The translations under genes were made by a program, and so were the position numbers. Below are positions 4,087 to 26,608 of a DNA stretch of 32,000 nucleotides, in pieces; within the stretch, counting starts at the first letter, position 1, and every line of letters starts with the position of its first letter. Origin of the DNA: Prochlorococcus sp. MIT 0801 (GTDB taxonomy: Bacteria; Cyanobacteriota; Cyanobacteriia; PCC-6307; Cyanobiaceae); the NCBI RefSeq assembly GCF_000757865.1, contig NZ_CP007754.1, positions 1,080,001 to 1,112,000 of the forward strand, read 5' to 3'. The notes under the pieces are model-generated. The model saw only the letters and a program-made list of their open reading frames with translations. It searched no databases and was not told the origin of the DNA.

Positions 4087-4213
4087 GAGAGGACAGGATT
4101 TCACCAACTGTCCACCGTTCTAATGATGATGCTTCTGTATCACGCCATCATAAAAAAACTGTAAAAAGAACTTTTCTCACCTTGATGTTCGGTTGAGGTA
4201 GGGCTTTCCTATC
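4087..4213. repeat. copy A of a multi-copy structured non-coding element
   Basis: gagaggacaggatttcaccaactgtcc ... tgatgttcggttgaggtagggctttcc. Homologous to 11532..11670 (same orientation) and 27961..28105 (inverted). Lies just past the 3' end of clpS. Stops in all frames. Confidence 0.7.
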
Positions 4214-4258
4214 TATTTTTTTGTTGTTTTACTGAGAGTTCTATATTGATTAGTAATT

Positions 4259-4594
4259 TCATGTTTTTTCAATTGGCGCCATTGTTAATCCTCTGCTGAT
4301 CAATTGCTGGTGATATAACTCTGCCTGTTCAAAGGGGCCTCTCCATACTTCCGCCAAACCTTCCCTATCTACTTCGACTGCAAGTTGCCATGATCTTTTT
4401 TCACTCATTCCTGGAATGATTGTCACTAGACAATTTGCTACATGTTCAAACGTATTAAAATTATCATCAAGCACTATTATCCTTGCTTCTGGATATTTTA
4501 TTTTTATTGTCTTTGGATCTAAGACTGTAGTAGTTGAATTGGTTGAAAATTTCATAGCTGTTGCTGCTGTTAGGTGCAAAACATCCTTCAACAT
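4259..4594 (-). CDS. clpS: ATP-dependent Clp protease adaptor ClpS
   Basis: Core YPEARIIVLDDNFNTFEHVANCLVTIIPGMSEKRSWQLAVEVDREGLAEVWRGPFEQAELYHQQL matches the ClpS family pattern. The true start may be the internal Met at 4555 (MKFSTN...). Confidence 0.85.
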   Translation of the reverse strand: MLKDVLHLTAATAMKFSTNSTTTVLDPKTIKIKYPEARIIVLDDNFNTFEHVANCLVTIIPGMSEKRSWQLAVEVDREGLAEVWRGPFEQAELYHQQLISRGLTMAPIEKT

Positions 4595-7069: not shown

Positions 7070-8530
7070 GTGTCTGAGATTTCATTCAAAACACTTTCAA
7101 ATTCAGGAGTAACTTTTACACCTAGTGAATATTCCATTGGTGATTCAATAGAATGGATGAACAGCCATATCCAAAATATTCAAAGGGAAATAAATTTAGT
7201 TGACGAAAGTCCTAATCAGTTGAAAATTGATTCAGCTAAAAATACTATTGATTACACCTCAGCTTTAAGCGATTTACCTCGACTTTCATTTACACTTACT
7301 ATAGGCGATGATTTCAACTTAAGAACTGTATCTGAATCAGGATATGATACAAATATTGCTTTTAAAGAATACTCTGAAAATAATACTGGCTCCATAGGAA
7401 CAGAAGTCAATGGTTCGATATCTTTTAATGAGATTGATATAGATATAAATTTAAATGGCACACAATTATGTAAAGCAAACCTGATTGGAAGTTTTTCCAT
7501 CAATACAGTGACTAACAATGTAGATCTTTCTTCAAATATATCTAAGTTGAGTTTCGTATCATCTAATGGAGAGGAGATTTCATATAAAGGAAACCTTTCA
7601 TTTTCAAGTAATGACGAGAGTTCTAAAGATTATTTCAACTATCTAACTAACTCATCAGACATTATATATGGCACACAATATAACGATAATATTAATTCTG
7701 GCTCTGGTGCTGACGCAATATATTCCTATGGAGGCAATGATCTTATAGATGGAGGTTTAGGAATTGATACTGTCAAGCTCACGGGAAAATTTGAAGAGTA
7801 TATTTTTGCACGGTCAACAAACTCCCTTAAAACTACCGATAAAGGATCGAATCGTAGTACTCCAGATAGAGACGGTTTGTTTAATGATGGAACAAATACT
7901 CTCACAAATATTGAATATATTCAGTTCTCAGATCAAACCGTAGAAGAATCCAAAGTAGACGTTATTAAAACTTATAGCGGTAAATTTAGTGATTATAAGT
8001 TCTATAATAAAAGAGACGGAGTCTATCAAATCAAAACTGATTCTGGGTATGACGACATCACGGGTTATCCATCCTTACAATTTACGGGAGAAGCAAGTAC
8101 GAGCGCCTTCCGTGATGTGAGTGCCATCGTTGATATCAAAGGAACATTTGATCAAGTCACAGGGTTAAACACAGATTCAGGTCGTATGTTCCGCCTCTAT
8201 AACGCTTCCTTCAAACGCCTTCCTGATGCGGATGGATTAAAGTACTGGATTGATAATTTTAGTTCTGGTATAAATACAATCAGAGTCGTTGCATCCTCCT
8301 TTTTAGGTTCAGCTGAATTTAAACAACGTTATGGAGACGATGTAACCGATTCAAGCTATGTAAATACTCTCTATAAGAATGTTCTAGGTCGTGATGCTGA
8401 TACAGGAGGCTTAAACTATTGGCTAGGCCAATTGAATAGTGGAGCGGAAACAAGATATGAAGTACTCCTTGGATTTGCAGAATCAGCTGAGAATAAAGCA
8501 CTCTTTACTGACATGACTGGGTTTGGTTGA
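7070..8530 (+). CDS. large secreted-type protein with RTX-like Ca-binding nonapeptides and tandem DUF4214-type C-terminal repeats
   Basis: GTG start. GSGADAIYSYGGNDLIDGGLGIDTV resembles GGxGxDxUx repeats. The C-terminus has two DUF4214-like units (RLYNASFKRLPDADGLKYW..; YVNTLYKNVLGRDADTGGLNYWLGQLNSG...EVLLGFAESAEN). Confidence 0.75.
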   Translation: MSEISFKTLSNSGVTFTPSEYSIGDSIEWMNSHIQNIQREINLVDESPNQLKIDSAKNTIDYTSALSDLPRLSFTLTIGDDFNLRTVSESGYDTNIAFKEYSENNTGSIGTEVNGSISFNEIDIDINLNGTQLCKANLIGSFSINTVTNNVDLSSNISKLSFVSSNGEEISYKGNLSFSSNDESSKDYFNYLTNSSDIIYGTQYNDNINSGSGADAIYSYGGNDLIDGGLGIDTVKLTGKFEEYIFARSTNSLKTTDKGSNRSTPDRDGLFNDGTNTLTNIEYIQFSDQTVEESKVDVIKTYSGKFSDYKFYNKRDGVYQIKTDSGYDDITGYPSLQFTGEASTSAFRDVSAIVDIKGTFDQVTGLNTDSGRMFRLYNASFKRLPDADGLKYWIDNFSSGINTIRVVASSFLGSAEFKQRYGDDVTDSSYVNTLYKNVLGRDADTGGLNYWLGQLNSGAETRYEVLLGFAESAENKALFTDMTGFG

Positions 8531-8565: not shown

Positions 8566-8603
8566 AATTTGAGGATATATTCGATCCTCAATCATGTTCT
8601 TCT

Positions 8604-9518
8604 TTATTTATTAGCCCAAGAGCAGGGCTTTGAATATTTTCTATAAATAGTTGCATGACCTTCGTTGACCAAGTTTTGCTGCAAGTTTATTCCATCGATT
8701 GTGAGCTCTGCCACTGTTCTTCCATACCGATCCTCCGTAACTCTACGAATATTGGCTTCTTTCCCTTTTACTAAATTATTTAAATAGTCTCTTGCAGCTT
8801 TCGCAGGGATAGGATCTGACCTTCTTCCTCTGATTTCTGGAGTATCAATACAGGCAAGTCTAATTTTTTCGCCTTGTGAGGTTGTACAAGTATCACCGTC
8901 ATAGCAGCTTTGAATGGTTACGGAACCGATTTCAGGTTTGTTTGATTTTCGCCCCAAAGTCTCACATGCCTCTCCATCATTATCTCTATCTAAATAAGAA
9001 TGCCCCTCAATTAATAATTGCTGTGCTTTAGACCAATCCCCAATATCACCACATTTATATTTCTTTTTCAGTTGAATTATCTTATGGCATTCAGGAAATG
9101 GTGTGAGTTCCGATTTTTCAATACTGCAAGTTATTTGACCTTTGTTAAATTGATAGTGAAACGAGGGGTTAGATTTATATGTAGTAGGTATTAAATTGAT
9201 AAAGCCGTGAACTGGGTTGCCATTACAACTATTTGAATAATCGGAATCTATGTCATAGCCACGGATATTGATTTGCGAGAAATTTAGAGTCTCATTTAAA
9301 GCTTTATTTGCTTCACATTCAGACTTGATTCTTAAAATACTATTTTGGGCGATTACTTTTTCGGACTTACGTGTGATATCTAAGATTTTAATAAGACTTG
9401 TGCTGATTAAAACTGCCAGCACTGCTATGACAACTAATAACTCAATTAAAGAGAAGCCTTTCTCTCCTCCTTGATTCAATAGTTTTCTAATAAGTTTTTG
9501 CCTTAAGCTCACATCCAT
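8604..9518 (-). CDS. modular pilin: prepilin N-terminus + pilin-sized module + Excalibur Ca-binding domain + staphylococcal-type nuclease (SNase)
   Basis: Leader MDVSLRQKLIRKLLNQGGEKG then FSLIELLVVIAVLAVL. Excalibur signature CGDIGDWSKAQQLLIEGHSYLDRDNDGEACE (aa ~155-186). SNase motifs IRLACIDTPE and DRYGRTVAEL (aa ~198-295). Confidence 0.85.
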   Translation of the reverse strand: MDVSLRQKLIRKLLNQGGEKGFSLIELLVVIAVLAVLISTSLIKILDITRKSEKVIAQNSILRIKSECEANKALNETLNFSQINIRGYDIDSDYSNSCNGNPVHGFINLIPTTYKSNPSFHYQFNKGQITCSIEKSELTPFPECHKIIQLKKKYKCGDIGDWSKAQQLLIEGHSYLDRDNDGEACETLGRKSNKPEIGSVTIQSCYDGDTCTTSQGEKIRLACIDTPEIRGRRSDPIPAKAARDYLNNLVKGKEANIRRVTEDRYGRTVAELTIDGINLQQNLVNEGHATIYRKYSKPCSWANK

Positions 9519-9642
9519 CTAGGTAATTTAGTGAGTGTGCTTCGGTCTGTTTTTAATTATGAAAAAATCTTTATAAGTCTTTTAATAAGATTTGCTCAGA
9601 TTTTAATAATCATTAGGATCATATAAGACCCTATAAATTTTT

Positions 9643-11376
9643 TTGATAGAAGCAATCCTCTCAAGCACATTTAAGATTCTTCTGTGTTTTGCAATTCCAA
9701 GCTGTATGTTTTTAATTCAGCTTTTGAATGATAGTGAAAAAAAGAAATCAAGCTATTATCGAAGGCGAGCTTTTGCATATTCAGCACTTCTTTTTATTAT
9801 TACAGATTTTATTCCACTAATATTTGATTCTATAAATAATATTTCTAATGCCCCCTTTTTAGCGCGTGAAAATGCTATCGGTGCTTTACCTTGGCTAATT
9901 CTTATTATTAAGGGATTAGAAAAAGGTTTTGAGATAGATAAATCAGATCGTGGTTTCTTTTATTCAATTTGGGAACCTTTCTCAGATAAATCTGAAAAAA
10001 TGAATAACAGAGAAAGTAAAACTAATATAAAGTATAAAGATATAAACATTCAGAATGAAAAAAAAGTTTATGATTCTCAATCTCCCTTAGGTTTATTTTC
10101 TAATAAAAAAATTAATTCGTTTGAAAAGGAAAGGACAAGTAAAAAAGATAGGAAGGACAACTCTGATTTATTAAATATAGATATGGGTTCCCAAGTCTTG
10201 GAGAGAGTTGATTTCATATTAAGTGAATCATATGATAAAGATTATTCAGATATACATATTGAACCAAATGAAAATAATTACAAAATACGTGTTAGAAAAG
10301 ATGGCATACTTCAAAGTTTGATATATATAAAAAGCTTAGAAGGAGTTCAATTAATGGCATGTTTAAAGAATTTAGCGGATATGGATGTGTCTGAAAAAAG
10401 AGCTAGTCAAGATGGGAAAATTTATAAAAAATATAAAGGCAAAAAACTTGAATTTAGATGTTCGACTGTTCCGGTGAGAAATGGTGAGTCTATGGTTTTA
10501 AGACTTTTGAAAAGTGATTCGTTTTTGCTAGATTTAGACACTTTAATTAATTTGTCATATGTAAGAAACTCTTTTAGGGATTTAATTAGCTTACAAAATG
10601 GAATTATTATTGTTTGTGGTCCAACTGGATCAGGTAAATCCACAACTCTTGCTGCTGCTTTGAGAGAGATAGACAATGGAGAGATAAAGATAGTTACAGC
10701 TGAGGATCCAATTGAATATGCTTTAGGCGGAGACATCGTTCAAACACAAGTTAATAAAGCTAAAAATCAGACATTTCCATATCTTCTCAGAACATTTATG
10801 AGACATGATCCTGATGTTATATTGATTGGAGAAACACGTGATCCGGAGACTGCGAATGCCTCCATGGATGCATCAGAAACAGGACATCTAGTTTTTACAA
10901 CATTACATGCAAATAGTGCTGCAAGTTCGTTAACCAGATTGCTAGATATGGAGATACCAAAGTATAAATTAAATGCTTCGGTTAGGGGCGTTTTAGCTCA
11001 AAGACTAGTGCGTTGTGTTTGCAAGTCCTGTAGTGAGTTACGAGAAATAAAGGAAGAAGATTCAAATAAAACTGGTATTAAATGTAATACATTAGTTAGA
11101 TATGCCTCAGTCTTACCAGAAGAAAAAAGAAATATTAATAATACAATGTATTGTGAAGAATGTATGGGTACAGGCTATAAAGGAAGAATTGGAGTTTATG
11201 AGCTGCTAATTATTGATAGGAAAATAAAGAATGCTATTTTAAAGGGAATGACGGATCTTGAAATAGAAGATATTGCAATAGAAGATGGAATGATAACTCT
11301 AAGAGAGTACGGTAAACAACTAATCTATAATCAATTAACTACTGTTTCGGAGCTTGAAAGAGTTTGCAAAATATAA
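9643..11376 (+). CDS. PilB/GspE-family type IV pilus / type II secretion assembly ATPase with atypical N-terminal membrane region
   Basis: Walker A VCGPTGSGKSTT, Walker B/Asp box DVILIGETRD, His box TGHLVFTTLHAN, and a Zn-type Cys cluster (CVCKSC ... CEECMGTGYKGR). The first ~95 aa contain three hydrophobic stretches, followed by a Lys/Asn-rich linker. The track start is TTG; alternative Met starts are at 9706, 10000 and 10183. Confidence 0.9.
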   Translation: MIEAILSSTFKILLCFAIPSCMFLIQLLNDSEKKKSSYYRRRAFAYSALLFIITDFIPLIFDSINNISNAPFLARENAIGALPWLILIIKGLEKGFEIDKSDRGFFYSIWEPFSDKSEKMNNRESKTNIKYKDINIQNEKKVYDSQSPLGLFSNKKINSFEKERTSKKDRKDNSDLLNIDMGSQVLERVDFILSESYDKDYSDIHIEPNENNYKIRVRKDGILQSLIYIKSLEGVQLMACLKNLADMDVSEKRASQDGKIYKKYKGKKLEFRCSTVPVRNGESMVLRLLKSDSFLLDLDTLINLSYVRNSFRDLISLQNGIIIVCGPTGSGKSTTLAAALREIDNGEIKIVTAEDPIEYALGGDIVQTQVNKAKNQTFPYLLRTFMRHDPDVILIGETRDPETANASMDASETGHLVFTTLHANSAASSLTRLLDMEIPKYKLNASVRGVLAQRLVRCVCKSCSELREIKEEDSNKTGIKCNTLVRYASVLPEEKRNINNTMYCEECMGTGYKGRIGVYELLIIDRKIKNAILKGMTDLEIEDIAIEDGMITLREYGKQLIYNQLTTVSELERVCKI

Positions 11377-11399: not shown

Positions 11400-11800
11400 T
11401 AAAAGAGAAATCTCTTTGACAGGGCTAACTAAAACTGTGTTAGGAACATTTTGGAAGGAAAAAGATTGATCATTCCCCTTCATTGGGTTCTAAAAAAAGT
11501 GCAGAGAAAATGATCTTTCTTGAATTGCGATGAGAGGACAGGATTTCGACGACCGTCCCCCGATCTGGGTTGATGATGCTTACTTATTACGTCATCATTC
11601 CGGAAGAAATCTAAAAAGAACTTCTTTAGTCCTGATGTTCGTTTGAAATAGCGCTTTCCAATCTTTGCTTGTTTACTAGCTTGATTTCACCTATATATTT
11701 AATTTAGGCAAAACCTCATCATGACATAATTGACTTTATGTAGTACGAGTCGATTAATAACCCCTTTAGTTAATGAAATTTCCAGAGGGGTTTCTTTTTG
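11400..11800. repeat. copy B (longest) of the structured non-coding element
   Basis: 11532..11670 aligns with copy A. 11640..11800 aligns inverted with 24445..24610. 11400..11450 (agaaatctctttgacagggctaactaaaactgtgt) aligns inverted with 28105..28150. Stops in all frames. Confidence 0.75.
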
Positions 11801-12635: not shown

Positions 12636-14366
12636 TCAGGATTTGGAATTTGGCATTAAATCAAAAGCTATAACCATTCTGTCTGAATCTGTACTAAAAG
12701 GTATTGTCCTATGATGTAAAGAAGAAGGGAATAGGACTATATCACCTATTTTTGGTTGATAAGTAAATTGAGGAGAGTTTAAATTTGAATAATTATTTGA
12801 ATTCAAACTGAATTCTATTGAACCTTCATCCTTACCAAGTGGGGGGACAACCTTCAAATAAATCACGCCACTTAACCAACCTGATTCATGAATATGCGCA
12901 GATTGATAACCTTGCTTCTTCAAAATCACATGCCATGCAAAAAGATTCTTTTTAGATGGCCATTCTTGAATAAAGGAACAAGAATGATTCATAAATTTAG
13001 AATAATATTCATCTAATTCAGTTAATATTAATGACTTGAGTTGTGAAATTGCCTTCGTTGAGTAAGAAAATAAATTTATATTATTTGGAGTGTGAAATCC
13101 ATTTCGAGTAGTATTCTCCTTAGGTTCCCATATGGTTTTTACTCCTTGTAGCTCATCAATGATTTCATTAATATATTTTTTAGAATTACTTTTATAAAAA
13201 TTTAAATTATTAATATGTAAAAAAGAGAGGGGATTTGGACAAAAGTTATTAGCAGTATATTTATTCTCCTGAGCTGCTATAAAAGAAGAAAATGCTGCTA
13301 ATCTTATATTTGATTCATCCAAGTTAGCAGTTTTTTCAATTCTGTCATAAATTTCATCAATTCTTCCTAAAGCATAAAGAGTCTCTAAAGCACATACTCG
13401 AGATATTTGCGAATTACAAGAATCTGCATCATTTAAAGCTAAATTAAAATTTCCTTTATCAAAAAATAATTGCCATCTATTCATTAATGCAGAATTAAAA
13501 CCTGGTTTAAAAGATATTGCTTCAGAATAACTTTTAAGAGCCTTATCTATTTCCCCAGTCTCTCTTAACAAATTCCCTAGAAAGTTATGAGCCTCTGCAT
13601 AATCAGGCTTCAATTCGATAGCTCGACAAATTGACAACTTAGCTTCATTTATCTTTCCAAGATCTTCTAAAATTCTACTCAAATTAAACAAATATTCTGC
13701 AGAGTCTGGCTTTAGACTAGTTGCTTTCCTTGCGGCTAATTCAGCATGATCTAATTTACCAAGATCTTTCAATATATTTGCAAGGTTTAGATGAGCTTCA
13801 GCAAAGTCAGGTTTCAATTTAATAGCTCTACATAAAGATATTTCTGATTCATTTAATTGACCAAAATCTCTTAATATATTTGCAAGGCTAAGATGAGCCT
13901 CAGCGAAATTAGGTCTAATTTCTATAGCCTTACGTATAGAAATTTCAGCGTCCTTTAATCTATTAAGGCTCCTAAATACATTTGCTAAATTGTAATATGC
14001 GTTTTCCTTGGTTGGATCTAGATCAATAGCTTTACGAAACAATATCTCTGCTTCTTTAGATTTACCAATATCATTTAATATAACTCCATAATTAGTAAGA
14101 ACTCTATAATCAATTAAACCATTTTTTATACAGTATTGATAGTGTTTAACAGCTTCTGAAATGTTACCTTTTAAATGAAGTTTAACTGCTTTATGAATTA
14201 AACCTTCCTTATTAGAAGTATGTAAATTATTACTCAAAGTAATTGGATTTATTGTATTTGAAACCTTATCTCCTTTTGAAGACTGAGAAACTAAAAAAAC
14301 CTTCACCTTAGAGGTTTCTCCAGCAGCTTTTTTAGTTTTTAGTTCTTCATTTTTGTCTGTTTCCAA
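12636..14366 (-). CDS. TPR-repeat protein fused to a TIGR02466/2OG-Fe(II)-oxygenase-like C-terminal domain
   Basis: The N-terminal half holds about 7 TPR units (..AEAHLNLANIL.DLGKL..AE...RKAI.LKPD..). The C-terminus reads QSAHIHESGWLSGVIYLKV..GSIEF...PKIGDIVLFPSSLHHRTIPF..RMVIAFDL, the pattern of the putative 2OG-Fe(II) oxygenase family common in picocyanobacteria and cyanophages. Confidence 0.75.
   Translation of the reverse strand: METDKNEELKTKKAAGETSKVKVFLVSQSSKGDKVSNTINPITLSNNLHTSNKEGLIHKAVKLHLKGNISEAVKHYQYCIKNGLIDYRVLTNYGVILNDIGKSKEAEILFRKAIDLDPTKENAYYNLANVFRSLNRLKDAEISIRKAIEIRPNFAEAHLSLANILRDFGQLNESEISLCRAIKLKPDFAEAHLNLANILKDLGKLDHAELAARKATSLKPDSAEYLFNLSRILEDLGKINEAKLSICRAIELKPDYAEAHNFLGNLLRETGEIDKALKSYSEAISFKPGFNSALMNRWQLFFDKGNFNLALNDADSCNSQISRVCALETLYALGRIDEIYDRIEKTANLDESNIRLAAFSSFIAAQENKYTANNFCPNPLSFLHINNLNFYKSNSKKYINEIIDELQGVKTIWEPKENTTRNGFHTPNNINLFSYSTKAISQLKSLILTELDEYYSKFMNHSCSFIQEWPSKKNLFAWHVILKKQGYQSAHIHESGWLSGVIYLKVVPPLGKDEGSIEFSLNSNNYSNLNSPQFTYQPKIGDIVLFPSSLHHRTIPFSTDSDRMVIAFDLMPNSKS
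13740..14170. repeat. direct repeat arm 1 (5' TPR-coding region)
   Basis: About 430 nt nearly identical (a few mismatches per 100 nt by eye) to 17020..17450. The offset is a constant ~3280 nt. Confidence 0.85.
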
Positions 14367-14488
14367 TATTTAAAACAATATATTGACATCATCATACATT
14401 AAATAGTTGTTTTTTAGCAGCCCAATTAAGTTATAATAATTATCGTATAGATCATTAGATTATTTCTGTATTTGAAGTCATTAAAGAT

Positions 14489-16186
14489 TTAATTTCTATA
14501 AATTATTAGATTACCAATAAACAAATAATCTAAATTTCCTCTGGAAAAAGAAGATAAAGCGTCTTTAGGCGACTCAACTATTGGCTCTCCAGGTAAATTA
14601 AAAGAAGTATTCAATAGAATTGGAATACCAGTCAACTTTTCTACTTCTATAAGCAATTTATATAAAATTTTATTTTGTTTTTCATTTACAGTTTGAACTC
14701 TAGCTGTGCCATCAATATGTTGAACAGCAATGAGTCTTTTATCTAGAACCTTTACATTCCTCATCATAACTGGAGAACTATCATTCATATCAAAATAGAG
14801 ATTGGCACGTTCTTCTATTACAACAGGAGCATAAGGACGGTATCTATCTCTGCACTTCATATAGTGATCTAAGAGATATTTTGTGAATCTACAAGATGGA
14901 TTGGCTAAAATACTTCGGTTACCTAAAGCTCTTGGTCCAAATTCACTTTTCCCTTGAAACCAAGCAATAACTTTTTCCTGATGAATAAGGTTAGACGCTT
15001 TTGCAAATAAATCATCATTAGAAAGAACTTCATATTTTAAATCAAAGTTTGATAATTCATTTATAGTTTCTTGCTCATTATAAGTTATGCCATAATAATC
15101 ATTTATTACTGAAAACTTACGATTAAAACTCATTTTTTGATTCACTGCTATGGCTGCACCAATGGCAGTGCCATTGTCTTCGACAGATCCATTTAAAATG
15201 ATAGATTTAAATAAATTACTCTTTTTTATTTTTTCGTTTGCAACAACATTTAGTGCAACCCCTCCAGAAAGATATAGATTTTCACATGGATATTTAGACT
15301 TAAGAAGATCTAATAACTTTAAAATTACATTTTCTGTCTCAGACTGTACTCTATTTGCTAAATTAATATGATGTATACTATCAGAAAGATCTAAACTAAA
15401 GATATTAGGTTTGTTATATATTTGATTGATTCTGGAAAAGTCTAAAGTGATTTTTCCAGAATCACTAATACTAAGTAAATCATTTTCGTTAGAATCTATA
15501 TCTTCACCATAGGCGGCTAAACCCATTACTTTTCCTGCAGAACTTCGCTTGCCACAACAATATAATGATGCCCAATCCCAATAATGACCGATGCTCTGGA
15601 GAAATCCTTTAGAATTTGAATTGTAATTTTCAATAGCAGCTATAGATGGACTGAATTTATAAATCAGGTGAGATTCTTTCCCATCAAACCAATATGCTGA
15701 AATAACTTCTTTACCACAAAAATGCGAAAAGTTAATAATTTTAGAGTGATATTTTTCTTTAATATTAAAATGATTTTTATCTTCCACTAAAGAACCACTT
15801 CCATCTATTACTAATACTATTCCTGGCTTGCTAAATCCATAATGAAGAATATATTCCATATGAGATAAATGATGAGGTACGTAGTATGTACCAAAGTAAT
15901 TTTTAGGAACTCCTCCAATATATTTGAACAATAATTCATTACTAATCTTCTTTACTTTCCATGGAGTAGAAAGTGCAATAGCATTTATATCTTCTAATTT
16001 TAATCCACTATAGTTTAAACAATAGTTTAAACATCTTTGTGCTAGTTCTAATTCATCACCAAGAGGTAGACTCTGACGTTTATAGCGCGAAATACGTTCA
16101 GCTTGAATAGCGACTTTTACTTCACCATCGCATAACAATGCTACACTCCCATTATGACTATTATTGATTCCAACAATTACATTCAT
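14489..16186 (-). CDS. NodU/CmcH-family carbamoyltransferase
   Basis: N-terminus IVGINNSHNGSVALLCDGEVKVAIQAERISRYKRQ and C-terminus GIPILLNTSFNLPGEPIVESPKDAL match the family hallmarks. Length 565 aa is typical. Confidence 0.85.
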   Translation of the reverse strand: MNVIVGINNSHNGSVALLCDGEVKVAIQAERISRYKRQSLPLGDELELAQRCLNYCLNYSGLKLEDINAIALSTPWKVKKISNELLFKYIGGVPKNYFGTYYVPHHLSHMEYILHYGFSKPGIVLVIDGSGSLVEDKNHFNIKEKYHSKIINFSHFCGKEVISAYWFDGKESHLIYKFSPSIAAIENYNSNSKGFLQSIGHYWDWASLYCCGKRSSAGKVMGLAAYGEDIDSNENDLLSISDSGKITLDFSRINQIYNKPNIFSLDLSDSIHHINLANRVQSETENVILKLLDLLKSKYPCENLYLSGGVALNVVANEKIKKSNLFKSIILNGSVEDNGTAIGAAIAVNQKMSFNRKFSVINDYYGITYNEQETINELSNFDLKYEVLSNDDLFAKASNLIHQEKVIAWFQGKSEFGPRALGNRSILANPSCRFTKYLLDHYMKCRDRYRPYAPVVIEERANLYFDMNDSSPVMMRNVKVLDKRLIAVQHIDGTARVQTVNEKQNKILYKLLIEVEKLTGIPILLNTSFNLPGEPIVESPKDALSSFSRGNLDYLFIGNLIIYRN

Positions 16187-16189
16187 GAC

Positions 16190-18182: not shown

Positions 18183-19892
18183 TTAAAAGAACGGGTTCTG
18201 TGCCTTATAAATTTCATAACCTTGATTCTCACCATCTGGTGATATTCCACTACTATCAGATCTAAAAGTAATGTGCTTCCCATCACTAGTTATCACTGGC
18301 TCCCTTAGATGACTGTCGAACTGATTAGCTTTGTCATCTAGTATCCTTTTTGTTTGACCAGTGGAAGTATTGTAGACATAAATATCAGCTATTCCATTTG
18401 TATCGTTATCATCAATATTTGTAGCCGATGATTGAAAAACTACGTAGTTACCATCTCTTGAAAAAGATGGCTGTTGTGACCATCCATCACCCTCATTTCC
18501 AGATGAACTCCCACTAATAGCATTTAACTCTCCAGAGTTCAGATCTTTGACCATGATTTGAGTATTCCCATTCCCCCCCCTGCTTGTGAACACTACTTTT
18601 GAACCATCTGAAGAGATAGAGCTTCCTCCACCTCCTCCAAATCCATACAATTGATCGCCTTGATTATTTGAGGATACCAGTGAAATTTCTGAAGTATTAA
18701 TATCTTGTACATAAAGGTTCGTTCCACTTGCTCCTGGGATTAAATCATCGCCTTCATAAACAAAACTTATTTTTGAGCCATCATCACTAATCCCAATTTG
18801 GCTAGTCGCATAGCTACCTCCTCGTGTCCTACCACTACCTGGAGAACCATCTGCTTTTGTAGGGACAACAATAAGCTCCCCTGTTTCCATATCCTTTCTA
18901 TAAATCAACCCTCTCCCTCCATCTTGTCTTTCTAAACCTGCAAATCTAGTATCAATACTTTCAAATACAACATATCTTCCGTCTGAAGACATTCTTGCCA
19001 TATCAATGCCCCAACTCGTCTGGATTTTTTCATTATTATCAAGAGTATCTACTCTAGTAATTTCACCTGTCACTAGATCTTTTCTATATATAGGTTGTGG
19101 TCCTTCACTATTACCAGCCTGACTATTTGGACCAGAAATACCGTCCAGGTCAACTGAGCCATATTCGTCAATACTTAGCAATGCATATCTACCATTGCAT
19201 GATAGATCCTGTATAAATGCTGAGTCTCCTGTTGATGGGGTACCATCTTTTGTCGAATCTATTAAAACTTTTTCACCAGATTTTATATCTACACGAAATA
19301 CGTGGCCTTCATCACCAGTAGACCAATCTCCTCGCTCAGTATAAAAATTACCATCACAGCTAATAATGCTATTTGAGCCATTCCCTGAGGATAGTTTAAC
19401 AAGTGCGTCCTCTATATCTCCACCACTAGAATTAGAACTAATACAAAGTAATCCTAAACACTCTGAGAAGTTAGTTCCTGTCTCCCCTTTAAAGCTATAA
19501 GTTAATTCATTCCCATTAGACGCCAATATAAAAGTAGGCAAAATATTCGTATCCGTAGGTATTGCACTAATTAATCCAGTTCCTGATGCTCCACTACAAC
19601 CATTAGATCCATCAGATTGGATTTGATAAAAATTTAAATTGCTTAAAGTAAATGTACCTACTTTGCCCGTGTCGGCTTTATTGATTTCACACTCAGTTTG
19701 AATTTGTTTCATGGCTGCCAACGCAGCAGTCGCTTGAGCTTTTCTCTGGAAGCAGGTAAACGTGGGGATTGCAATCGCAGATAGGACTGCCAGTACAGAA
19801 ACAACAACAACAAGTTCTATTAGAGAAAAACCTTCCTCACCTTGCTTACGCAAGAGCTTCCTTAACAGCTTAAGCTTTAAAATTTGCTCCAT
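18183..19892 (-). CDS. modular pilin: prepilin N-terminus + pilin module + large PD40/TolB-like beta-propeller domain
   Basis: Leader MEQILKLKLLRKLLRKQGEEG then FSLIELVVVVSVLAVL. The pilin module ends at ECLGLLC. The C-terminal ~410 aa hold repeated S.DG(R/S/N/K)(Y/K)(V/I).F.S blades (DGRYVVFES, DGSKISFVYEG, DGSKVVFTSRG, DGNYVVFQSSA, DGKHITFRSDS). Confidence 0.85.
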   Translation of the reverse strand: MEQILKLKLLRKLLRKQGEEGFSLIELVVVVSVLAVLSAIAIPTFTCFQRKAQATAALAAMKQIQTECEINKADTGKVGTFTLSNLNFYQIQSDGSNGCSGASGTGLISAIPTDTNILPTFILASNGNELTYSFKGETGTNFSECLGLLCISSNSSGGDIEDALVKLSSGNGSNSIISCDGNFYTERGDWSTGDEGHVFRVDIKSGEKVLIDSTKDGTPSTGDSAFIQDLSCNGRYALLSIDEYGSVDLDGISGPNSQAGNSEGPQPIYRKDLVTGEITRVDTLDNNEKIQTSWGIDMARMSSDGRYVVFESIDTRFAGLERQDGGRGLIYRKDMETGELIVVPTKADGSPGSGRTRGGSYATSQIGISDDGSKISFVYEGDDLIPGASGTNLYVQDINTSEISLVSSNNQGDQLYGFGGGGGSSISSDGSKVVFTSRGGNGNTQIMVKDLNSGELNAISGSSSGNEGDGWSQQPSFSRDGNYVVFQSSATNIDDNDTNGIADIYVYNTSTGQTKRILDDKANQFDSHLREPVITSDGKHITFRSDSSGISPDGENQGYEIYKAQNPFF

Positions 19893-20510: not shown

Positions 20511-21500
20511 TTAGTTGCAGATTGAAAGTTCTGCCAATCCCTGGTAACTACCCTCAATAGGAGTGTTAGTCATATCATCGAGATACATATTCTGGTTGGA
20601 AGCGTTTGGATTATTGAATATTGCTAATAATCGATCAGAATTAGAATCCGGACCTTCTTCAATGTTGTTGTTTAACACTAGATTAGAAAAAGAATTATCA
20701 AAATTGTCTCCATTGGACCATTCCCAGCTACCGTTTGGATTCCTTTTTGCACCTGTCCAAAAATGATTGATTGACCATTCATTTGGTGCCCAGGAATGAT
20801 TATCATCAGAGTACTGATATTTTGCTTTAGAAAACTCTTCTCCTATCCAAATGTTTTCCTCTAGGTCTGTAACGGAAACAAGATTGCCTCCTAAGGCAAT
20901 TGCATTTGCATTTGCATCGGTCCAATTAGGACCGTCAACTAAAACATAGGCCGAGCAACCTTTTTCGATATAAGTATCTTTTCTGACAAAAGAATTAGCT
21001 TCTATATTCGCCTGAAATGTACTACCTCCTGTGTAACCATTGGCTACATTGCAAACCAAACCCAATCCTTTGGAGAGATCAGTTCCTGTTTGACCTTTAA
21101 AGCTATACGTTAATTCACTACTATTAGTCGCCAATATGAAAGTAGGCAATATATTTGTATCGGTAGGTATTGCACTAATTAATCCTGTTCCTGATGCTCC
21201 ACCACAACTATTAGATCCATCAGATTGGATTTGATAAGAATTTAAATTGCTTGAAGTAAATGTACCTACGTTACCTGTATCAGATTTATTAATTTCACAT
21301 TCAGTATGAATTTGTTTTATGGCTGCCAATGCAGCAGTCGCTTGAGCTTTTCTCTGGAAGCAGCTAAACGTGGGAATTGCAATCGCAGACAGGACTGCAA
21401 GCACTGACACAACAACTACAAGTTCAATTAAAGAAAAACCTTCCTCACCTTGCTTACCCAAGAGCTGCCTGAAGAGTTTTAGCTTTAAAGTTTCCTCCAT
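20511..21500 (-). CDS. modular pilin: prepilin N-terminus + pilin module + C-type-lectin-like domain (variant A)
   Basis: Leader MEETLKLKLFRQLLGKQGEEG then FSLIELVVVV. The C-terminus has a CTLD pattern: CSAYVLVDGPNWTDANANAIALGGNLVSVTDLEEN..WTGAKRNPNGSWEWSNGDNF ... LSICN. Confidence 0.8.
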   Translation of the reverse strand: MEETLKLKLFRQLLGKQGEEGFSLIELVVVVSVLAVLSAIAIPTFSCFQRKAQATAALAAIKQIHTECEINKSDTGNVGTFTSSNLNSYQIQSDGSNSCGGASGTGLISAIPTDTNILPTFILATNSSELTYSFKGQTGTDLSKGLGLVCNVANGYTGGSTFQANIEANSFVRKDTYIEKGCSAYVLVDGPNWTDANANAIALGGNLVSVTDLEENIWIGEEFSKAKYQYSDDNHSWAPNEWSINHFWTGAKRNPNGSWEWSNGDNFDNSFSNLVLNNNIEEGPDSNSDRLLAIFNNPNASNQNMYLDDMTNTPIEGSYQGLAELSICN

Positions 21501-24444: not shown

Positions 24445-24610
24445 CAAGAAACCCCTCTAGAAATTCCAATAACTAAAGGGGTTATTAAATTGACTCGTAC
24501 TATATGAAGTCAATTTATGTCTTGATGAGGTTTGGCCTCAATAAAATTTATAGGTGAAATCAGCATAGAAAACAAGCAAAGCTTTGAAACCCCTACCTCA
24601 TATGACTGAA
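24445..24610. repeat. copy D of the structured non-coding element (proximal part), right arm of the inner inverted repeat together with 24196..24440
   Basis: Inverted match to 11640..11800. Contains stem-loops aacccct/aggggtt (24450-24483) and attgact/agtcaat. Confidence 0.8.
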
Positions 24611-25624: not shown

Positions 25625-26608
25625 ATGGAGGAAAGTATAAAGCTAAAACTCTTCAAGCTGCTCTTGGGTAAGCAAGGTGAGGAAGGTTTTTCTTTAATTG
25701 AACTTGTAGTTGTTGTGTCAGTGCTTGCAGTCCTGTCTGCGATTGCAATCCCCACGTTTAGCTGCTTTCAGAGAAAAGCTCAGGCGACTTCTGCACTGGC
25801 AGCAATGAAACAAATACAAACTGAGTGTGAAATTAATAAATCTGATACGGGTAGCGCAGGTACGTTTACTTTAAGTAATTTAAATTCTTATCAAATCCAA
25901 TCAGATGGATCTAATGGTTGTGGTGGAGCATCAGGAACTGGATTGATTAGTGCAATACCTACTGATACAAATATATTGCCTACTTTTATATTGGCTTCTA
26001 GTGGTAATGAATTAACTTATAGCTTTAAAAAACAGACTGGAAATAACTTTCAAGATTGCTTGGGAATGCTTTGCAATACTTTCAGAGGCCAACAAACAAG
26101 AGACTTTGTCCTTTCAGATCAATTTGAAGACATTGTTATTGAAGAAACCTATATAGAGCGAGGTTGTTCTGCTTATGCATGGGTTGGAGGTCCAAGCTGG
26201 CTAGAAGCTCAAGCAAATGCTAAAAAGCTTGGTGGCAATTTGGCAACGATTAACGATAAAGAAGAGAATGATTTTCTAATGAATATTTTCAATGAAGAGG
26301 GAAGGAAACATATACCCGTACAACAAGGTCATCTTAATTTACATATCGGTCTAACAAAGACTGTCGAAGCTGATGAGGGCGCACCATATGGTAATGGTTG
26401 GATCTCAGGGGAATCTTCACTCTATAGACCATCCACTTGGGGGGTTTGTAACAGTGAATGGTGTGGGATGGGAACTGATCCAGATGGAGATCATACTTCT
26501 TTTATTTTAGATCTTAATGATCAAAATCCATCAGCAAATTGGAATGATTTTCCTAATTGGCAAGGCGAAGGAGTGGGACTTGTAGAAATACCAATATGTA
26601 ATAACTAG
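25625..26608 (+). CDS. modular pilin: prepilin N-terminus + pilin module + C-type-lectin-like domain (variant B)
   Basis: Leader MEESIKLKLFKLLLGKQGEEG then FSLIELVVVV. The pilin module ends at DCLGMLC. The C-terminus reads CSAYAWVGGPSWLEAQANAKKLGGNLATINDKEENDFL...LHIGLTK...GNGWISGES...WNDFPNW...EIPICNN. Confidence 0.8.
   Translation: MEESIKLKLFKLLLGKQGEEGFSLIELVVVVSVLAVLSAIAIPTFSCFQRKAQATSALAAMKQIQTECEINKSDTGSAGTFTLSNLNSYQIQSDGSNGCGGASGTGLISAIPTDTNILPTFILASSGNELTYSFKKQTGNNFQDCLGMLCNTFRGQQTRDFVLSDQFEDIVIEETYIERGCSAYAWVGGPSWLEAQANAKKLGGNLATINDKEENDFLMNIFNEEGRKHIPVQQGHLNLHIGLTKTVEADEGAPYGNGWISGESSLYRPSTWGVCNSEWCGMGTDPDGDHTSFILDLNDQNPSANWNDFPNWQGEGVGLVEIPICNN

What the first reader, a model, noticed from the sequence alone, without database searches (positions are those of the whole stretch)
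8604..9518. Pilin fused to an Excalibur Ca-binding domain and a staphylococcal-type nuclease
One reading frame contains four parts:
- a prepilin signal (G20|F21 SLIELLVV);
- a pilin-like module with paired cysteines;
- an Excalibur signature (DRDNDGEACE within CGDIGDWSKAQQLLIEGHSYLDRDNDGEACE);
- an SNase fold signature (IRLACIDTPE ... DRYGRTVAEL).

Excalibur and SNase domains are both extracellular and Ca-dependent, so the combination is coherent. It implies a nuclease that is either displayed on a pilus-like fibre or exported through the pilin pathway.

Possible roles, all inferred:
- extracellular DNA degradation for P/N scavenging in oligotrophic water;
- processing of incoming DNA for uptake;
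- escape from DNA-rich aggregates.

The gene sits divergently next to the PilB-like ATPase gene, with a 124-nt shared intergenic region.
Basis: partly seen in the sequence, partly recalled or inferred. Interest (0 to 1): 0.8.

Follow-up and report, generated by a model that had tools for sequence, protein, structure and literature searches.

The report
Nuclease fused to a pilus subunit
A Prochlorococcus gene fuses a type IV pilus subunit to a calcium-binding domain and a staphylococcal-type DNA/RNA-cutting enzyme, and it occurs only in strains that can build pili, so the cell probably uses its pili to carry a nuclease outside the cell.

Summary
ORF 8604-9518 (minus strand, 304 aa) in Prochlorococcus sp. 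MIT 0801 is one intact gene with four parts:
- a class III (prepilin) signal, cleaved at G21|F22 with E26 at +5;
- a ~125-residue pilin module with four invariant Cys;
- an Excalibur Ca-binding domain (C156...DRDNDGEAC185E);
- an SNase domain with every catalytic residue invariant.

More than 100 full-length homologues share this architecture, and all modules are under purifying selection (dN/dS 0.11-0.31). Among 185,579 species genomes, the fusion occurs only in Prochlorococcus. Eight of 8 scored carriers have pilus genes, against 3 of 12 genomes that hold only the free-standing SNase. In three contexts the gene lies beside T4P machinery genes.

The same carrier pilin bears other cargos, including three paralogues in this window (beta-propeller, two lectin-like). 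In high-light strains the gene is a single-gene cassette in the tRNA-Pro island.

My best reading is a modular minor pilin that takes a Ca-activated nuclease across the outer membrane on type IV pili. Its role (DNA scavenging, competence or a DNA barrier) is not resolved; the phosphate link is weak. NCBI annotates it only as 'thermonuclease family protein', and the architecture was catalogued once without comment. It is a new variant of a known kind.

The parts
8604..9518 (-). Complete gene for the pilin-Excalibur-SNase fusion (304 aa; stop codon at 8604-8606).
   Evidence: ORF list. 100% identical to Prochlorococcus sp. MIT 0801 'thermonuclease family protein'. The architecture is conserved in 120 of the 120 best homologues.
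9456..9518 (-). Class III (prepilin) leader peptide, aa 1-21, ending in G21 (MDVSLRQKLIRKLLNQGGEKG).
   Evidence: PF07963 and TIGR02532 hits. G21 is invariant in alignments A2 and A4. The leader resembles that of the strain's PilA1, as listed in PMC7994388 Supplementary Data 1.
9075..9455 (-). Mature pilin module, aa 22-148. It comprises F22 (+1), E26 (+5), the hydrophobic alpha1N segment, the alpha1 helix (aa 24-73) and a four-stranded head. C68, C98, C131 and C144 are invariant.
   Evidence: AF2 models (the pilin-only model has pLDDT 85.6 and pTM 0.70). Profile A4 hits only type IV pilins and pseudopilins in the PDB, with a best E of 8e-15. dN/dS is 0.16-0.31.
8961..9053 (-). Excalibur Ca-binding domain, aa 156-186 (C156 ... 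D177-R-D-N-D-G-E-A-C185-E186).
   Evidence: PF05901 scores 22.4 bits against a cut-off of 22. Both Cys and the DxDxDGxxCE motif are invariant. These hallmarks are as defined in PMC5137146. The low pLDDT of 46-61 fits a domain that folds only with Ca2+.
8607..8930 (-). Staphylococcal-nuclease (SNase/OB-fold) domain, aa 197-304. The active site is D209, R220, D225, T226, E228, Y265 and R267. There are four invariant Cys (205, 211, 223, 299).
   Evidence: PF00565 E 1.4e-13. Alignment to S. aureus thermonuclease. Foldseek TM 0.68 to 1SNC, probability 1.00. Invariant columns in A2.
8569..8591 (.). Bidirectional terminator-like hairpin between the fusion gene and the convergent DUF4214/RTX gene.
   Evidence: Terminator scan: 8-bp stem with T-runs on both strands.
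9519..9705 (.). Intergenic region shared with the divergent ATPase gene. It holds a promoter-like TTAAAA-18-CATAAT site at 9585-9556 on the minus strand.
   Evidence: Promoter scan, which is a consensus match only. The ATPase start is taken as M22/nt 9706 from homologue alignment A5.
9643..11376 (+). Neighbouring second PilB/GspE-type assembly ATPase paralogue. Its conserved N-terminus has two hydrophobic segments in place of the canonical PilB N-domain. Whether it belongs functionally with the fusion is uncertain.
   Evidence: T2SSE E 3.8e-103. GspE and PilB models match from aa ~154 but below their cut-offs. It differs from Pro_MIT0801_1244. The subfamily is P0284-P0293.
18183..19892 (-). 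Paralogous modular pilin: the same carrier module plus a PD40/TolB-like beta-propeller cargo (569 aa).
   Evidence: Alignment A1. N_methyl + PD40. TolB-like hit.
20511..21500 (-). Paralogous modular pilin: the same carrier module plus a C-type-lectin-like cargo (329 aa).
   Evidence: A1. N_methyl passes its cut-off, but Lectin_C is sub-threshold (E 0.07).
25625..26608 (+). Paralogous modular pilin: the same carrier module plus a C-type-lectin-like cargo (327 aa).
   Evidence: A1. N_methyl passes its cut-off. Lectin_C has E 5e-4 and 21.2 bits against a cut-off of 22.6.

Best explanation
The gene encodes a modular minor type IV pilin whose cargo is a Ca2+-dependent staphylococcal-type nuclease.

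Proposed path (inferred unless marked as shown):
1. The prepilin inserts into the inner membrane by its hydrophobic alpha1N segment.
2. The prepilin peptidase cuts after G21 and methylates F22.
3. The periplasmic part is oxidised to five inferred disulfides: two in the pilin head, one in Excalibur and two in SNase.
4. The pilin module, with its invariant E26(+5), lets the strain's type IV pilus machine incorporate the protein into a filament. The ~17-kDa cargo makes the tip the most likely position.
5. The Excalibur-SNase cargo is thereby carried through the PilQ secretin to the outside.
6. In seawater (~10 mM Ca2+) Excalibur folds and the SNase site is loaded. In the reducing, low-Ca cytoplasm the enzyme would be inactive, which protects the cell.

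Cyanobacteria lack a type II secretion system. Fusion to a pilin is therefore a plausible way to move across the outer membrane an enzyme that would otherwise stay periplasmic or lipid-anchored.

Outside the cell, the enzyme would cut dissolved or particle-bound DNA/RNA within reach of the pilus. The most likely benefit is nucleotide (P/N) scavenging. Keeping the long pili free of sticky eDNA is a second possibility.

Shown here: the domain identities, the intact active site, purifying selection on every module, restriction to pilus-encoding genomes, and gene adjacency to T4P clusters. Inferred: processing, incorporation into the filament, tip location, enzyme activity and physiological role.
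For: **Domains**
- Domain calls and catalytic residues.
- The pilin module is a genuine pilin. A profile of it retrieves only type IV pilins and pseudopilins from the PDB: Geobacter PilA 8e-15, P. aeruginosa PilA, E. coli PpdD, Neisseria PilE, Thermus PilA4/5, MshA and GspG.
- The AF2 model gives a 50-residue alpha1 helix plus a 4-stranded sheet, pLDDT 85.6.

**Selection and conservation**
- G(-1) and E(+5) are invariant in 38/38 and 22/22 sequences.
- The pilin head has dN/dS 0.16 and its four Cys are invariant. More than a membrane anchor is therefore under selection.

**Link to the pilus system**
- The full fusion occurs only in Prochlorococcus among 185,579 species genomes, whereas the free-standing SNase is widespread.
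- All 8 scored fusion carriers have pilus-gene hits in PMC7994388 Supplementary Data 1: MIT 0801, MIT 9201 and six SAGs. Only 3 of 12 genomes with the free SNase alone do. Hypergeometric P = 0.0013 (my own arithmetic from those counts). The survey's background is 24-33%.
- The gene directly flanks T4P clusters in L009 (PilD, pilins, PilB, PilT, PilC, PilM) and L095 (PilQ, PilC, PilT). It lies near PilD in L024 and next to other prepilin genes in L004, L014, L017 and L024.

**Carrier-cargo logic**
- The same pilin module carries many unrelated C-terminal modules.
- Free-standing relatives of the SNase module have Sec, lipoprotein or TM N-termini.

**Literature**
- The modular-pilin concept and the tip-display argument: PMC8179133.
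- In cyanobacteria the T4P appears dedicated to pilins, and there is no T2SS: PMC11424642.
- Excalibur is unfolded without Ca2+: PMC5137146.
Against: - There is no direct evidence of expression, processing, incorporation into pili or nuclease activity.
- Foldseek of the pilin-only model against the PDB found no pilin; the best hits were weak frataxin-like matches at E 0.16. The more sensitive libraries were unavailable. The fold claim therefore rests on model topology and on the alpha1-centred sequence profile.
- Most contexts show no T4P genes within 10 kb.
- For two of the eight carriers (AG-388-D03, AG-402-O16), the survey text I retrieved showed pilin-type hits but not clearly the apparatus genes.
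- The co-occurrence test is small and not corrected for phylogeny.
- The conserved E(+5) is typical of subunits that dock below another pilin, whereas the very tip subunit of some systems lacks it. 'Tip' is therefore not implied by sequence.
- The phosphate link is weak. pstS proximity probably reflects the position of the tRNA-Pro island, and the upstream regions share no motif with pstS.
Confidence: 0.55

Rival explanations
1. Inner-membrane-tethered periplasmic nuclease. The prepilin N-terminus serves only as a PilD-processed membrane anchor, and the protein is never polymerised. It degrades DNA that pilus retraction or porins bring into the periplasm, feeding nucleotides to periplasmic phosphatases and transporters.
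For: Free-standing relatives are periplasmic, lipoprotein or membrane-anchored enzymes. YokF, the archetypal SNase+Excalibur protein, acts at the membrane. Most loci lack adjacent pilus genes. Periplasmic Ca2+ should equilibrate with seawater, so the enzyme would be active there too (inference).
Against: A simple anchor would not need a conserved pilin head with two invariant Cys pairs under dN/dS 0.16, nor an invariant E(+5), which is required for assembly rather than cleavage (the E5 role is from established pilin biology, recalled from memory). Ordinary Sec/lipoprotein versions of the same nuclease already exist in the same genus, so the fusion must add something. Co-occurrence with the whole pilus gene set is 8 of 8.
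Confidence: 0.2
2. Exported soluble nuclease. The T4P machine, or a pseudopilus powered by the neighbouring second PilB-like ATPase, is used as a secretion route. The cargo is released into the medium by shedding of pili or by cleavage in the Lys-rich linkers.
For: There are two low-confidence, Lys/Arg-rich linkers, at aa 145-155 and 187-198. PilA1 and pili are abundant in marine picocyanobacterial exoproteomes. In MIT 0801 a distinct PilB paralogue lies next to the gene.
Against: The ATPase adjacency is not conserved. No protease or processing site was identified. Releasing an enzyme into a dilute ocean wastes it, whereas tethering keeps products near the cell (inference). In Synechocystis, loss of PilQ did not change secretion of a heterologous reporter, so its authors consider the T4P likely dedicated to pilins.
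Confidence: 0.12
3. Competence-type nuclease. It processes incoming double-stranded DNA captured by the pilus for uptake and transformation, playing the role that EndA or NucA plays in Gram-positive bacteria.
For: Type IV pili mediate DNA capture in many bacteria, and the SNase OB-fold binds and cuts both DNA strands (established knowledge).
Against: The published survey lists no ComEA/ComEC hits for MIT 0801, and most Prochlorococcus lack com genes. SNase is a non-specific endo/exonuclease yielding 3'-mononucleotides and dinucleotides (established knowledge), which would destroy rather than prepare transforming DNA. No com genes were seen in any flank.
Confidence: 0.05
4. DNA barrier or gatekeeper. 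A surface-exposed nuclease that destroys foreign DNA arriving at the envelope (plasmids through nanotubes, vesicle DNA, DNA on pili), as proposed for YokF-family nucleases.
For: YokF (SNase+Excalibur) blocks nanotube-mediated plasmid transfer. The abstract of PMC11114229, listed, reports nanotubes between Prochlorococcus and Synechococcus. The gene sits in flexible genomic islands, where defence genes often reside.
Against: There was no significant PADLOC defence-system match for the protein or its neighbours. No linked immunity or sensor genes were found. YokF acts chiefly in the donor cell and in Gram-positives.
Confidence: 0.08

Closest known systems
Modular type IV pilins (Streptococcus sanguinis PilB with a vWA module and PilC with a lectin module; Raynaud et al. 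2021, PMC8179133)
   Same: An N-terminal pilin module with a class III signal is joined by a short linker to a C-terminal module of a family not specific to pili. Related cargos also occur here, as lectin-like paralogues in the same window. That paper's Dataset S1 lists the architecture IPR012902-IPR016071 (N_methyl + SNase-like) once among 264 architectures.
   Different: The cargo here is a hydrolytic enzyme acting on nucleic acids, not an adhesin. An extra Ca-switch domain (Excalibur) lies between carrier and cargo. The host is a diderm planktonic phototroph, so the cargo must pass a secretin. The nuclease architecture was only counted in that dataset and was never described or discussed.
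Staphylococcus aureus thermonuclease (SNase, PF00565) and Bacillus subtilis YokF (SNase + Excalibur lipoprotein)
   Same: The same fold (TM 0.68), the same Ca ligands and catalytic Arg/Glu, and the same pairing with an Excalibur domain as in YokF.
   Different: About 22-26% identity to SNase. There are four clade-specific invariant Cys. Excalibur precedes rather than follows the nuclease; the cyanobacterial relative P0185 has it C-terminal. Targeting is by a prepilin signal instead of a Sec or lipoprotein signal.
Free-standing picocyanobacterial SNases (e.g. P0126, P0127, P0132, P0136; loci L026-L092)
   Same: 45-70% identical to the nuclease module, with the same CYDGDTC...LACIDTPE...YGRTV...C-W signature.
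   Different: They are 110-210 aa with Sec, lipoprotein or TM N-termini and no pilin module. They occur in genomes irrespective of pili (3 of 12 piliated). In L064 such a gene sits directly upstream of a separate pilin+Excalibur gene, which is a split form of the fusion.
Secreted nucleases used for eDNA-phosphate scavenging (Vibrio cholerae Dns/Xds, Shewanella ExeM)
   Same: Extracellular, divalent-cation-dependent degradation of environmental DNA that can supply phosphate. I read only the titles and abstracts listed: PMC4714964, PMC3212620 and PMC6085458.
   Different: The folds, secretion routes and phosphate regulation of those enzymes were not compared here. No Pho-type regulation could be shown for this gene.
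PilA1-type pili of marine picocyanobacteria (Aguilo-Ferretjans et al. 2021, PMC7994388)
   Same: The same machinery and the same patchy distribution. The carrier's leader and alpha1 closely resemble the strain's PilA1.
   Different: That work concerns the major pilin and buoyancy or grazing. Neither its main text nor its supplementary files contain the word 'nuclease'. Some modular pilins were scored there simply as 'PilE' BLAST hits.

Membership tests
Type IV pilin (class III signal peptide protein) | Short basic leader ending in Gly(-1), followed by Phe(+1) and Glu(+5). | tested here: met
   ...GEKG21|F22SLIE26. PF07963 scores 28 bits against 21.2 and TIGR02532 scores 28.1 against 16.3. G21 and E26 are invariant in A2 and A4. 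F22 is invariant in A4 and nearly invariant in A2, where the closest relatives have Leu.
Type IV pilin (class III signal peptide protein) | About 20 hydrophobic residues forming alpha1N, within a ~50-residue alpha1 helix packed on an antiparallel beta-sheet head. | tested here: inconclusive
Type IV pilin (class III signal peptide protein) | C-terminal disulfide-bounded region in the head (D-region-like). | tested here: met
   C131 and C144 are invariant in the fusion family (A2), and C68 and C98 are invariant in both A2 and A4.
Type IV pilin (class III signal peptide protein) | Cleavage and N-methylation by the prepilin peptidase, and polymerisation into a filament. | not testable with these tools
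   This needs N-terminal mass spectrometry and analysis of the pili fraction. A prepilin peptidase gene lies next to the fusion gene in L009 and near it in L024.
Type IV pilin (class III signal peptide protein) | A type IV pilus machinery is encoded in the same genome. | tested here: met
   MIT 0801 has PilA1_1246, PilC_1242, PilQ_1235 and PilB_1244. All 8 scored carriers have pilus-gene hits, against 3 of 12 controls.
Modular pilin (sensu Raynaud et al. 2021) | A pilin module fused by a short linker to a C-terminal module of a recognised family that is not specific to type IV filaments. | tested here: met
   Pilin at 22-148, Excalibur at 156-186 and SNase at 197-304. The linkers at 145-155 and 187-198 have low pLDDT. 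The definition is from PMC8179133.
Modular pilin (sensu Raynaud et al. 2021) | The cargo is presented by the filament and contributes directly to a pilus function. | not testable with these tools
   This requires immuno-EM or proteomics of pili, together with genetics.
Staphylococcal nuclease (SNase, PF00565) | HMM match above the gathering score, and the OB-fold. | tested here: met
   51.7 bits against a cut-off of 21. Foldseek probability 1.00, TM 0.63-0.68 to more than 280 SNase entries including 1SNC.
Staphylococcal nuclease (SNase, PF00565) | Ca2+ ligands D21/D40/T41 and catalytic R35/E43/R87 (S. aureus numbering). | tested here: met
   These correspond to D209/D225/T226 and R220/E228/R267 in the alignment. 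All are invariant in 38 sequences, and the motifs are present in at least 117 of 120 homologues.
Staphylococcal nuclease (SNase, PF00565) | Ca-dependent hydrolysis of DNA and RNA. | not testable with these tools
   This needs a biochemical assay.
Excalibur Ca-binding domain (PF05901) | Two absolutely conserved Cys and the DxDxDGxxCE loop. | tested here: met
   C156 and D177-R-D-N-D-G-E-A-C185-E186 are invariant. The criteria are from PMC5137146. One natural variant (L021) has C185F.
Excalibur Ca-binding domain (PF05901) | HMM match above the gathering score over the whole domain. | tested here: inconclusive
   The score is 22.4 bits against a cut-off of 22, and only model positions 23-36 aligned. 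Many homologues carry a precomputed PF05901 hit. phmmer of the segment against the PDB found nothing.
Type II secretion pseudopilin / T2SS substrate | A T2SS gene set (GspD, F, C, L, M...) and membership of a Gsp pseudopilin family. | tested here: not met
   Gsp pseudopilin models match only the N-terminal helix and score far below their cut-offs: GspG 18.8 against 88.85. The neighbouring ATPase scores 386 against 630 for GspE. No other Gsp genes were found in the window. Cyanobacteria are reported to lack a T2SS.
Competence nuclease system (EndA/NucA with ComEA/ComEC) | Com uptake genes are present and the nuclease is associated with them. | tested here: not met
   No ComEA/ComEC hits are listed for MIT 0801 in the survey. 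No com genes were found in any flank.

The most novel reading that the evidence does not exclude
Prochlorococcus may use one conserved 'carrier' pilin as a general display and export platform. Interchangeable cargo modules are grafted onto the same ~125-residue pilin module: a nuclease, lectin-like domains, a beta-propeller and many domains of unknown fold.

These genes would be traded between cells as single-gene cassettes in the tRNA-Pro island. In some strains the system would be served by a dedicated, membrane-anchored PilB paralogue.

Under this reading, the type IV pilus of the ocean's most abundant phototroph is not only a drag or anti-grazing device. It would also substitute for the missing type II secretion system, extending enzymes and binding modules micrometres away from a 0.6-um cell. 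The nuclease-pilin would be the first enzymatic example.
Probability: 0.3. Interest if true: 0.8.

Novelty: new variant of a known kind. Interest (0 to 1): 0.62.

Why it matters
Type IV pili are usually seen as fibres that pull, stick or bind DNA. A pilus subunit carrying an active nuclease would add enzymatic degradation at a distance to that list. It would also show how a bacterium without a type II secretion system can get an enzyme past its outer membrane.

Dissolved DNA is a substantial organic phosphorus pool in oligotrophic oceans. A pilus-borne nuclease in Prochlorococcus would therefore bear on how a minority of cells access that pool. It could also help explain why pili are kept in only about 15-25% of cells despite their cost in phage exposure.

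The family offers a clean natural experiment. The same nuclease exists free-standing, split from the pilin, and fused to it, within one genus. The system can be tested with existing strains (MIT 0801, MIT 9201) and an existing Synechococcus pilus mutant.

Tried and rejected
1. **Frameshift or two genes:** rejected. The reading frame is continuous in the 120 best homologues, and selection is purifying across the linkers.
3. **Pho-box or shared regulation with pstS:** upstream regions of four pstS genes and 13 fusion genes share no motif. The conserved TGAGGGAA-N3-TGAGGGAA repeat turned out to mark cassette boundaries next to partial tRNA-Pro copies, not a Pho box.
4. **pstS proximity as functional linkage:** 4 distinct fusion contexts against 6 of 68 free-SNase loci. 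I judged this positional, a consequence of where the island sits, and therefore weak.
5. **Conserved pairing with the PilB-like ATPase:** rejected.
6. **Phage origin or carriage:** only one SNase-only hit, at 47% identity, in IMG/VR.
7. **Defence-system membership:** no meaningful PADLOC hit.
8. **Profile search with the pilin module to count cargo types:** the candidate cap returned mostly short stand-alone pilins, so it was uninformative on cargo.
9. **The listing of cluster members for organism names:** no names were returned.
10. **phmmer of the Excalibur segment against the PDB:** no hit.
Full report
**1. The observation**

The window is from Prochlorococcus sp. MIT 0801, a low-light clade I (LLI) strain. 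The ORF product is 100% identical to a protein that NCBI names only 'thermonuclease family protein'.

The ORF lies at 8604-9518 on the minus strand and encodes 304 aa. Three Pfam domains pass their curated cut-offs:
- SNase: E 1.4e-13, 51.7 bits against a cut-off of 21.
- N_methyl: 28 bits against 21.2.
- Excalibur: 22.4 bits against 22, only just above the cut-off, with only the Ca-loop half aligned.

NCBIfam adds the prepilin cleavage/methylation domain TIGR02532.

The strand is minus. The 124-nt intergenic distance applies only to the longest possible ATPase ORF; the homologue-supported start (nt 9706) or the NCBI start gives 187-205 nt.

**2. One gene, conserved and functional in all parts**

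The 120 best database relatives are all 274-318 aa and 56-84% identical over 91-100% of the length, apart from one 248-aa sequence at 71% coverage. In a 38-sequence alignment the following are invariant:
- G21 and E26.
- All ten cysteines: 68, 98, 131 and 144 in the pilin head; 156 and 185 in Excalibur; 205, 211, 223 and 299 in SNase.
- The Excalibur loop D177-x-D-x-D-G-x-x-C-E186.
- Every SNase active-site residue.

In the phmmer alignment to S. aureus thermonuclease, D209, D225 and T226 correspond to the Ca ligands D21, D40 and T41. R220, E228 and R267 correspond to R35, E43 and R87. The roles of these residues come from the classical SNase literature, which I recall from memory.

Motif counts over 120 homologues show the catalytic motifs in at least 117. 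Pairwise dN/dS among 13 genes is 0.31 for the leader plus alpha1, 0.16 for the pilin head, 0.13 for Excalibur and 0.11 for SNase. No module is decaying, and the two-gene/frameshift alternative is refuted.

**3. Structure**

AlphaFold2 with the family alignment gives mean pLDDT 79. The model has three regions:
- A 50-residue N-terminal helix (24-73) followed by four strands, which is a pilin-like topology.
- A low-confidence stretch at 150-190.
- A confident SNase domain.

Foldseek matches the SNase part to more than 280 SNase entries, with TM 0.68 to 1SNC and probability 1.00.

The low confidence of the Excalibur segment fits the published NMR result that this domain is unfolded without Ca2+ and folds on binding it (PMC5137146). 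That paper also defines the hallmarks met here: two invariant disulfide-forming Cys and the DxDxDGxxCE motif.

As a substitute test, I built a profile of the pilin module from 22 fusion and non-fusion relatives. It retrieves essentially only type IV pilins and pseudopilins from the PDB: Geobacter PilA at 8e-15, then P. aeruginosa PilA, E. coli PpdD, Neisseria PilE, Thermus PilA4/PilA5, MshA and GspG. The alignments run along the leader and the alpha1 helix. I therefore regard 'type IV pilin' as established at the sequence level. The head fold is supported by the model but not independently confirmed.

**4. Domain shuffling on a carrier pilin**

An exhaustive search of 1.84 billion cluster representatives shows three things.
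- The full fusion collapses into very few 50%-identity clusters.
- The nuclease module has many free-standing relatives (45-70% identical, 110-210 aa) with Sec, lipoprotein or transmembrane N-termini. One of them (P0185) has Excalibur at the C-terminus instead.
- The pilin module recurs in proteins of 160-570 aa with unrelated C-termini.

The window itself holds three more paralogues with the same carrier module. One carries a PD40/TolB-like beta-propeller (18183-19892). Two carry sub-threshold C-type-lectin-like domains (20511-21500 and 25625-26608).

In SAG AG-412-C21 (L064), a free-standing SNase gene is directly followed by a separate pilin+Excalibur gene, which is a split form of the fusion. 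In AG-388-B05 (L024), the fusion is followed by a 542-aa modular pilin with a near-identical carrier module.

**5. Distribution and link to pili**

I scanned one genome for each of 185,579 species. The full-length fusion was found only in Prochlorococcus: HLI and HLII SAGs plus the cultured HLII strain MIT 9201. The nuclease alone is common in both Prochlorococcus and Synechococcus.

I cross-checked these genomes against the pilus-gene survey of Aguilo-Ferretjans et al. 2021 (PMC7994388, Supplementary Data 1).
- All eight scored fusion carriers have pilus-gene hits: MIT 0801, MIT 9201, AG-402-N10, AG-388-D03, AG-402-O16, AG-355-P07, AG-418-K17 and AG-388-B05.
- Only 3 of 12 genomes with just the free-standing SNase do.
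- The hypergeometric P is 0.0013 (my own arithmetic from those counts). The survey's background is 24% of SAGs and 33% of isolates.

Three caveats apply. The numbers are small. There is no phylogenetic correction. For AG-388-D03 and AG-402-O16, the text I retrieved showed pilin-type hits but not clearly the apparatus genes.

MIT 0801 has a canonical cluster elsewhere in its genome (PilA1_1246, PilC_1242, PilQ_1235, PilB_1244). The survey lists no ComEA/ComEC hits for it.

Physical linkage is seen in three contexts:
- L009: the fusion lies next to PilD, pilins, PilB, PilT, PilC and PilM.
- L095: it lies next to PilQ, PilC and PilT.
- L024: PilD is nearby.

Other prepilin genes flank the fusion in L004, L014 and L017.

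**6. Genomic setting**

In high-light genomes the gene is a single-gene cassette. Just downstream of its stop codon lies a unit made of three TGAGGGAA repeats (the first two at an 11-bp period), about 35 nt of spacer, and the 3' half of tRNA-Pro(tgg). In L013 and L024 the unit ends in the full tRNA gene.

A partial tRNA copy and a TGAGGGAA pair also lie upstream of the gene. The same units bracket other modular-pilin cassettes (L017, L024).

This matches the published picture of Prochlorococcus islands anchored at seven tRNA genes, including Pro(tgg), with partial tRNAs marking older integrations (Hackl et al., bioRxiv 2020.12.28.424599). That paper's main text does not contain the words pili, pilin or nuclease.

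The LLI copy in the window lacks these repeats. It lies between a convergent DUF4214/RTX gene, with which it shares a hairpin at 8569-8591, and a divergent ATPase gene.

**7. The neighbouring ATPase**

The ATPase at 9643-11376 has a PilB/GspE-type core from about aa 154. It is not the strain's canonical PilB.

Its N-terminal ~150 residues contain two hydrophobic segments. They are conserved in a small Prochlorococcus subfamily (P0284-P0293) and replace the usual PilB N-domain.

In other genomes this paralogue lies next to a 333-aa prepilin gene (L012) or next to no pilin gene at all (L011). The closest fusion homologue with usable context (L010) has no ATPase neighbour. The divergent pairing is therefore not a conserved feature of the finding.

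**8. Mechanism**

The best-supported model is a modular minor pilin in the sense of Raynaud et al. 2021 (PMC8179133). The type IV pilus machine would incorporate it into the filament. It would then carry the Excalibur-SNase cargo through the secretin to the outside.

Several observations support this:
- The invariant E(+5) and the conserved, disulfide-bearing head argue that filament incorporation is under selection, not mere membrane anchoring. The role of E5 in assembly is established pilin biology that I recall from memory.
- The genus already has Sec and lipoprotein versions of the same enzyme, so the fusion must confer something extra.
- Cyanobacteria lack a T2SS, and the authors of PMC11424642 consider their T4P likely dedicated to pilins. 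Exit across the outer membrane is therefore the obvious gain.

Seawater Ca2+ (about 10 mM) would fold Excalibur and load the SNase site. The need for Ca2+ and for five disulfides would keep the enzyme inactive in the cytoplasm. This last point is inference.

Tip placement is inferred from cargo size and from the argument in PMC8179133. It is not implied by the sequence.

The physiological role is the least certain step. Nucleotide (P/N) scavenging is plausible. Its only support is pstS within 10 kb in four distinct contexts, which is probably positional, and no shared upstream motif was found. Competence is disfavoured. A YokF-like DNA-gatekeeper role cannot be excluded, but it has no support from defence-system models.

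**9. Novelty**

I searched the full-text library for Prochlorococcus + pilin + nuclease, for modular pilins, for extracellular DNA/nuclease, and for T4P + nuclease. No description of a pilin-nuclease fusion turned up.

The only trace is a single uncommented line in Dataset S1 of PMC8179133, 'IPR012902 - IPR016071, 1'. The protein is annotated only by its nuclease domain.

The concept of modular pilins, including predicted peptidase cargos, is known. I therefore rate this a new variant of a known kind rather than something categorically new.

**10. Verdict**

My confidence by claim:
- Identity as a T4P-dependent modular pilin with an intact SNase cargo: about 0.8.
- Display on pili: about 0.5.
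- A phosphorus- or nitrogen-scavenging role: about 0.3.

I score interest at 0.62. A specialist in pili or in Prochlorococcus ecology would find it notable and directly testable. It extends an existing concept and has no experimental support yet.

Noticed in passing
window 18183-19892 (-), 20511-21500 (-), 25625-26608 (+): Three further modular pilins share the fusion's ~150-aa N-terminal module and are nearly identical to one another there. Their cargos differ: a PD40/TolB-like beta-propeller and two weak C-type-lectin-like domains. A fifth, Pro_MIT0801_1509, lies elsewhere in the genome and was scored as 'PilE' in PMC7994388.
   Followed up: partly
window 9643-11376 (+): This is a second PilB/GspE-type ATPase. 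Its first ~150 residues hold two conserved hydrophobic (TM-like) segments in place of the canonical PilB N-domain. It defines a small Prochlorococcus subfamily (P0284-P0293). Its likely true start is M22 (nt 9706).
   Followed up: partly
L064:9900-10990 (Prochlorococcus sp. AG-412-C21): A split arrangement. A free-standing SNase with an N-terminal HGGRLNSEGCHN...YHCH motif is immediately followed by a separate 198-aa gene. That gene encodes prepilin signal + pilin module + Excalibur, with no nuclease.
   Followed up: partly
L013:9770-11044, L017:1217-7476, L019:9880-11499, L024:9897-12669: Cassette-boundary units flank the fusion gene and other modular-pilin genes. Each unit comprises three TGAGGGAA repeats (the first two at an 11-bp period), a ~35-nt spacer, and the 3' half of tRNA-Pro(tgg). 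In L013 and L024 the unit ends in the full tRNA. They may be att scars or integrase arm sites. The LLI window has none.
   Followed up: partly
window 22582-23068 (+): Two overlapping short ORFs look like a fragmented tyrosine-recombinase C-terminus (…FRHRY…HSLDTHLLIYSRF). They lie between the modular-pilin paralogues, which suggests a degraded integrative element.
   Followed up: no
window 11705-11778 (+) and 24464-24539 (-): Two copies of the cyanobacterial sRNA Yfr13 (Rfam RF02364; 41.8 and 78.1 bits). One lies just downstream of the ATPase gene. A 61-nt direct repeat occurs at 4154-4214 and 11604-11664, the second copy sitting just upstream of that Yfr13.
   Followed up: no
window 7070-8530 (+); repeats at 642-941 / 8146-8445 and 8319-8501 / 27209-27391: A 486-aa RTX (HemolysinCabind) + DUF4214 protein converges on the fusion gene. 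Its DUF4214-coding segment is duplicated at least twice elsewhere in the window, at 75% DNA identity or as near-identical antisense ORFs.
   Followed up: no
window 12636-17605 (-): A three-gene cluster: TPR + 2OG-Fe(II) oxygenase (576 aa), carbamoyltransferase (565 aa) and a TPR protein (471 aa). A carbamoyltransferase also lies next to the ATPase paralogue in L011, so this pairing may be conserved.
   Followed up: no
L021:10001-10855 (Prochlorococcus SAG AG-896-E23): A natural variant of the fusion in which the second Excalibur cysteine is replaced (DKDGVAFE instead of ...ACE). The rest of the gene is intact.
   Followed up: no
window 4259-4594 (-); L006-L008: ClpS lies a few kb from the fusion gene both in the LLI window and in HL contigs (ClpS - fusion - UPF0259 - PstS). 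This suggests the island occupies a syntenic chromosomal position across clades.
   Followed up: partly
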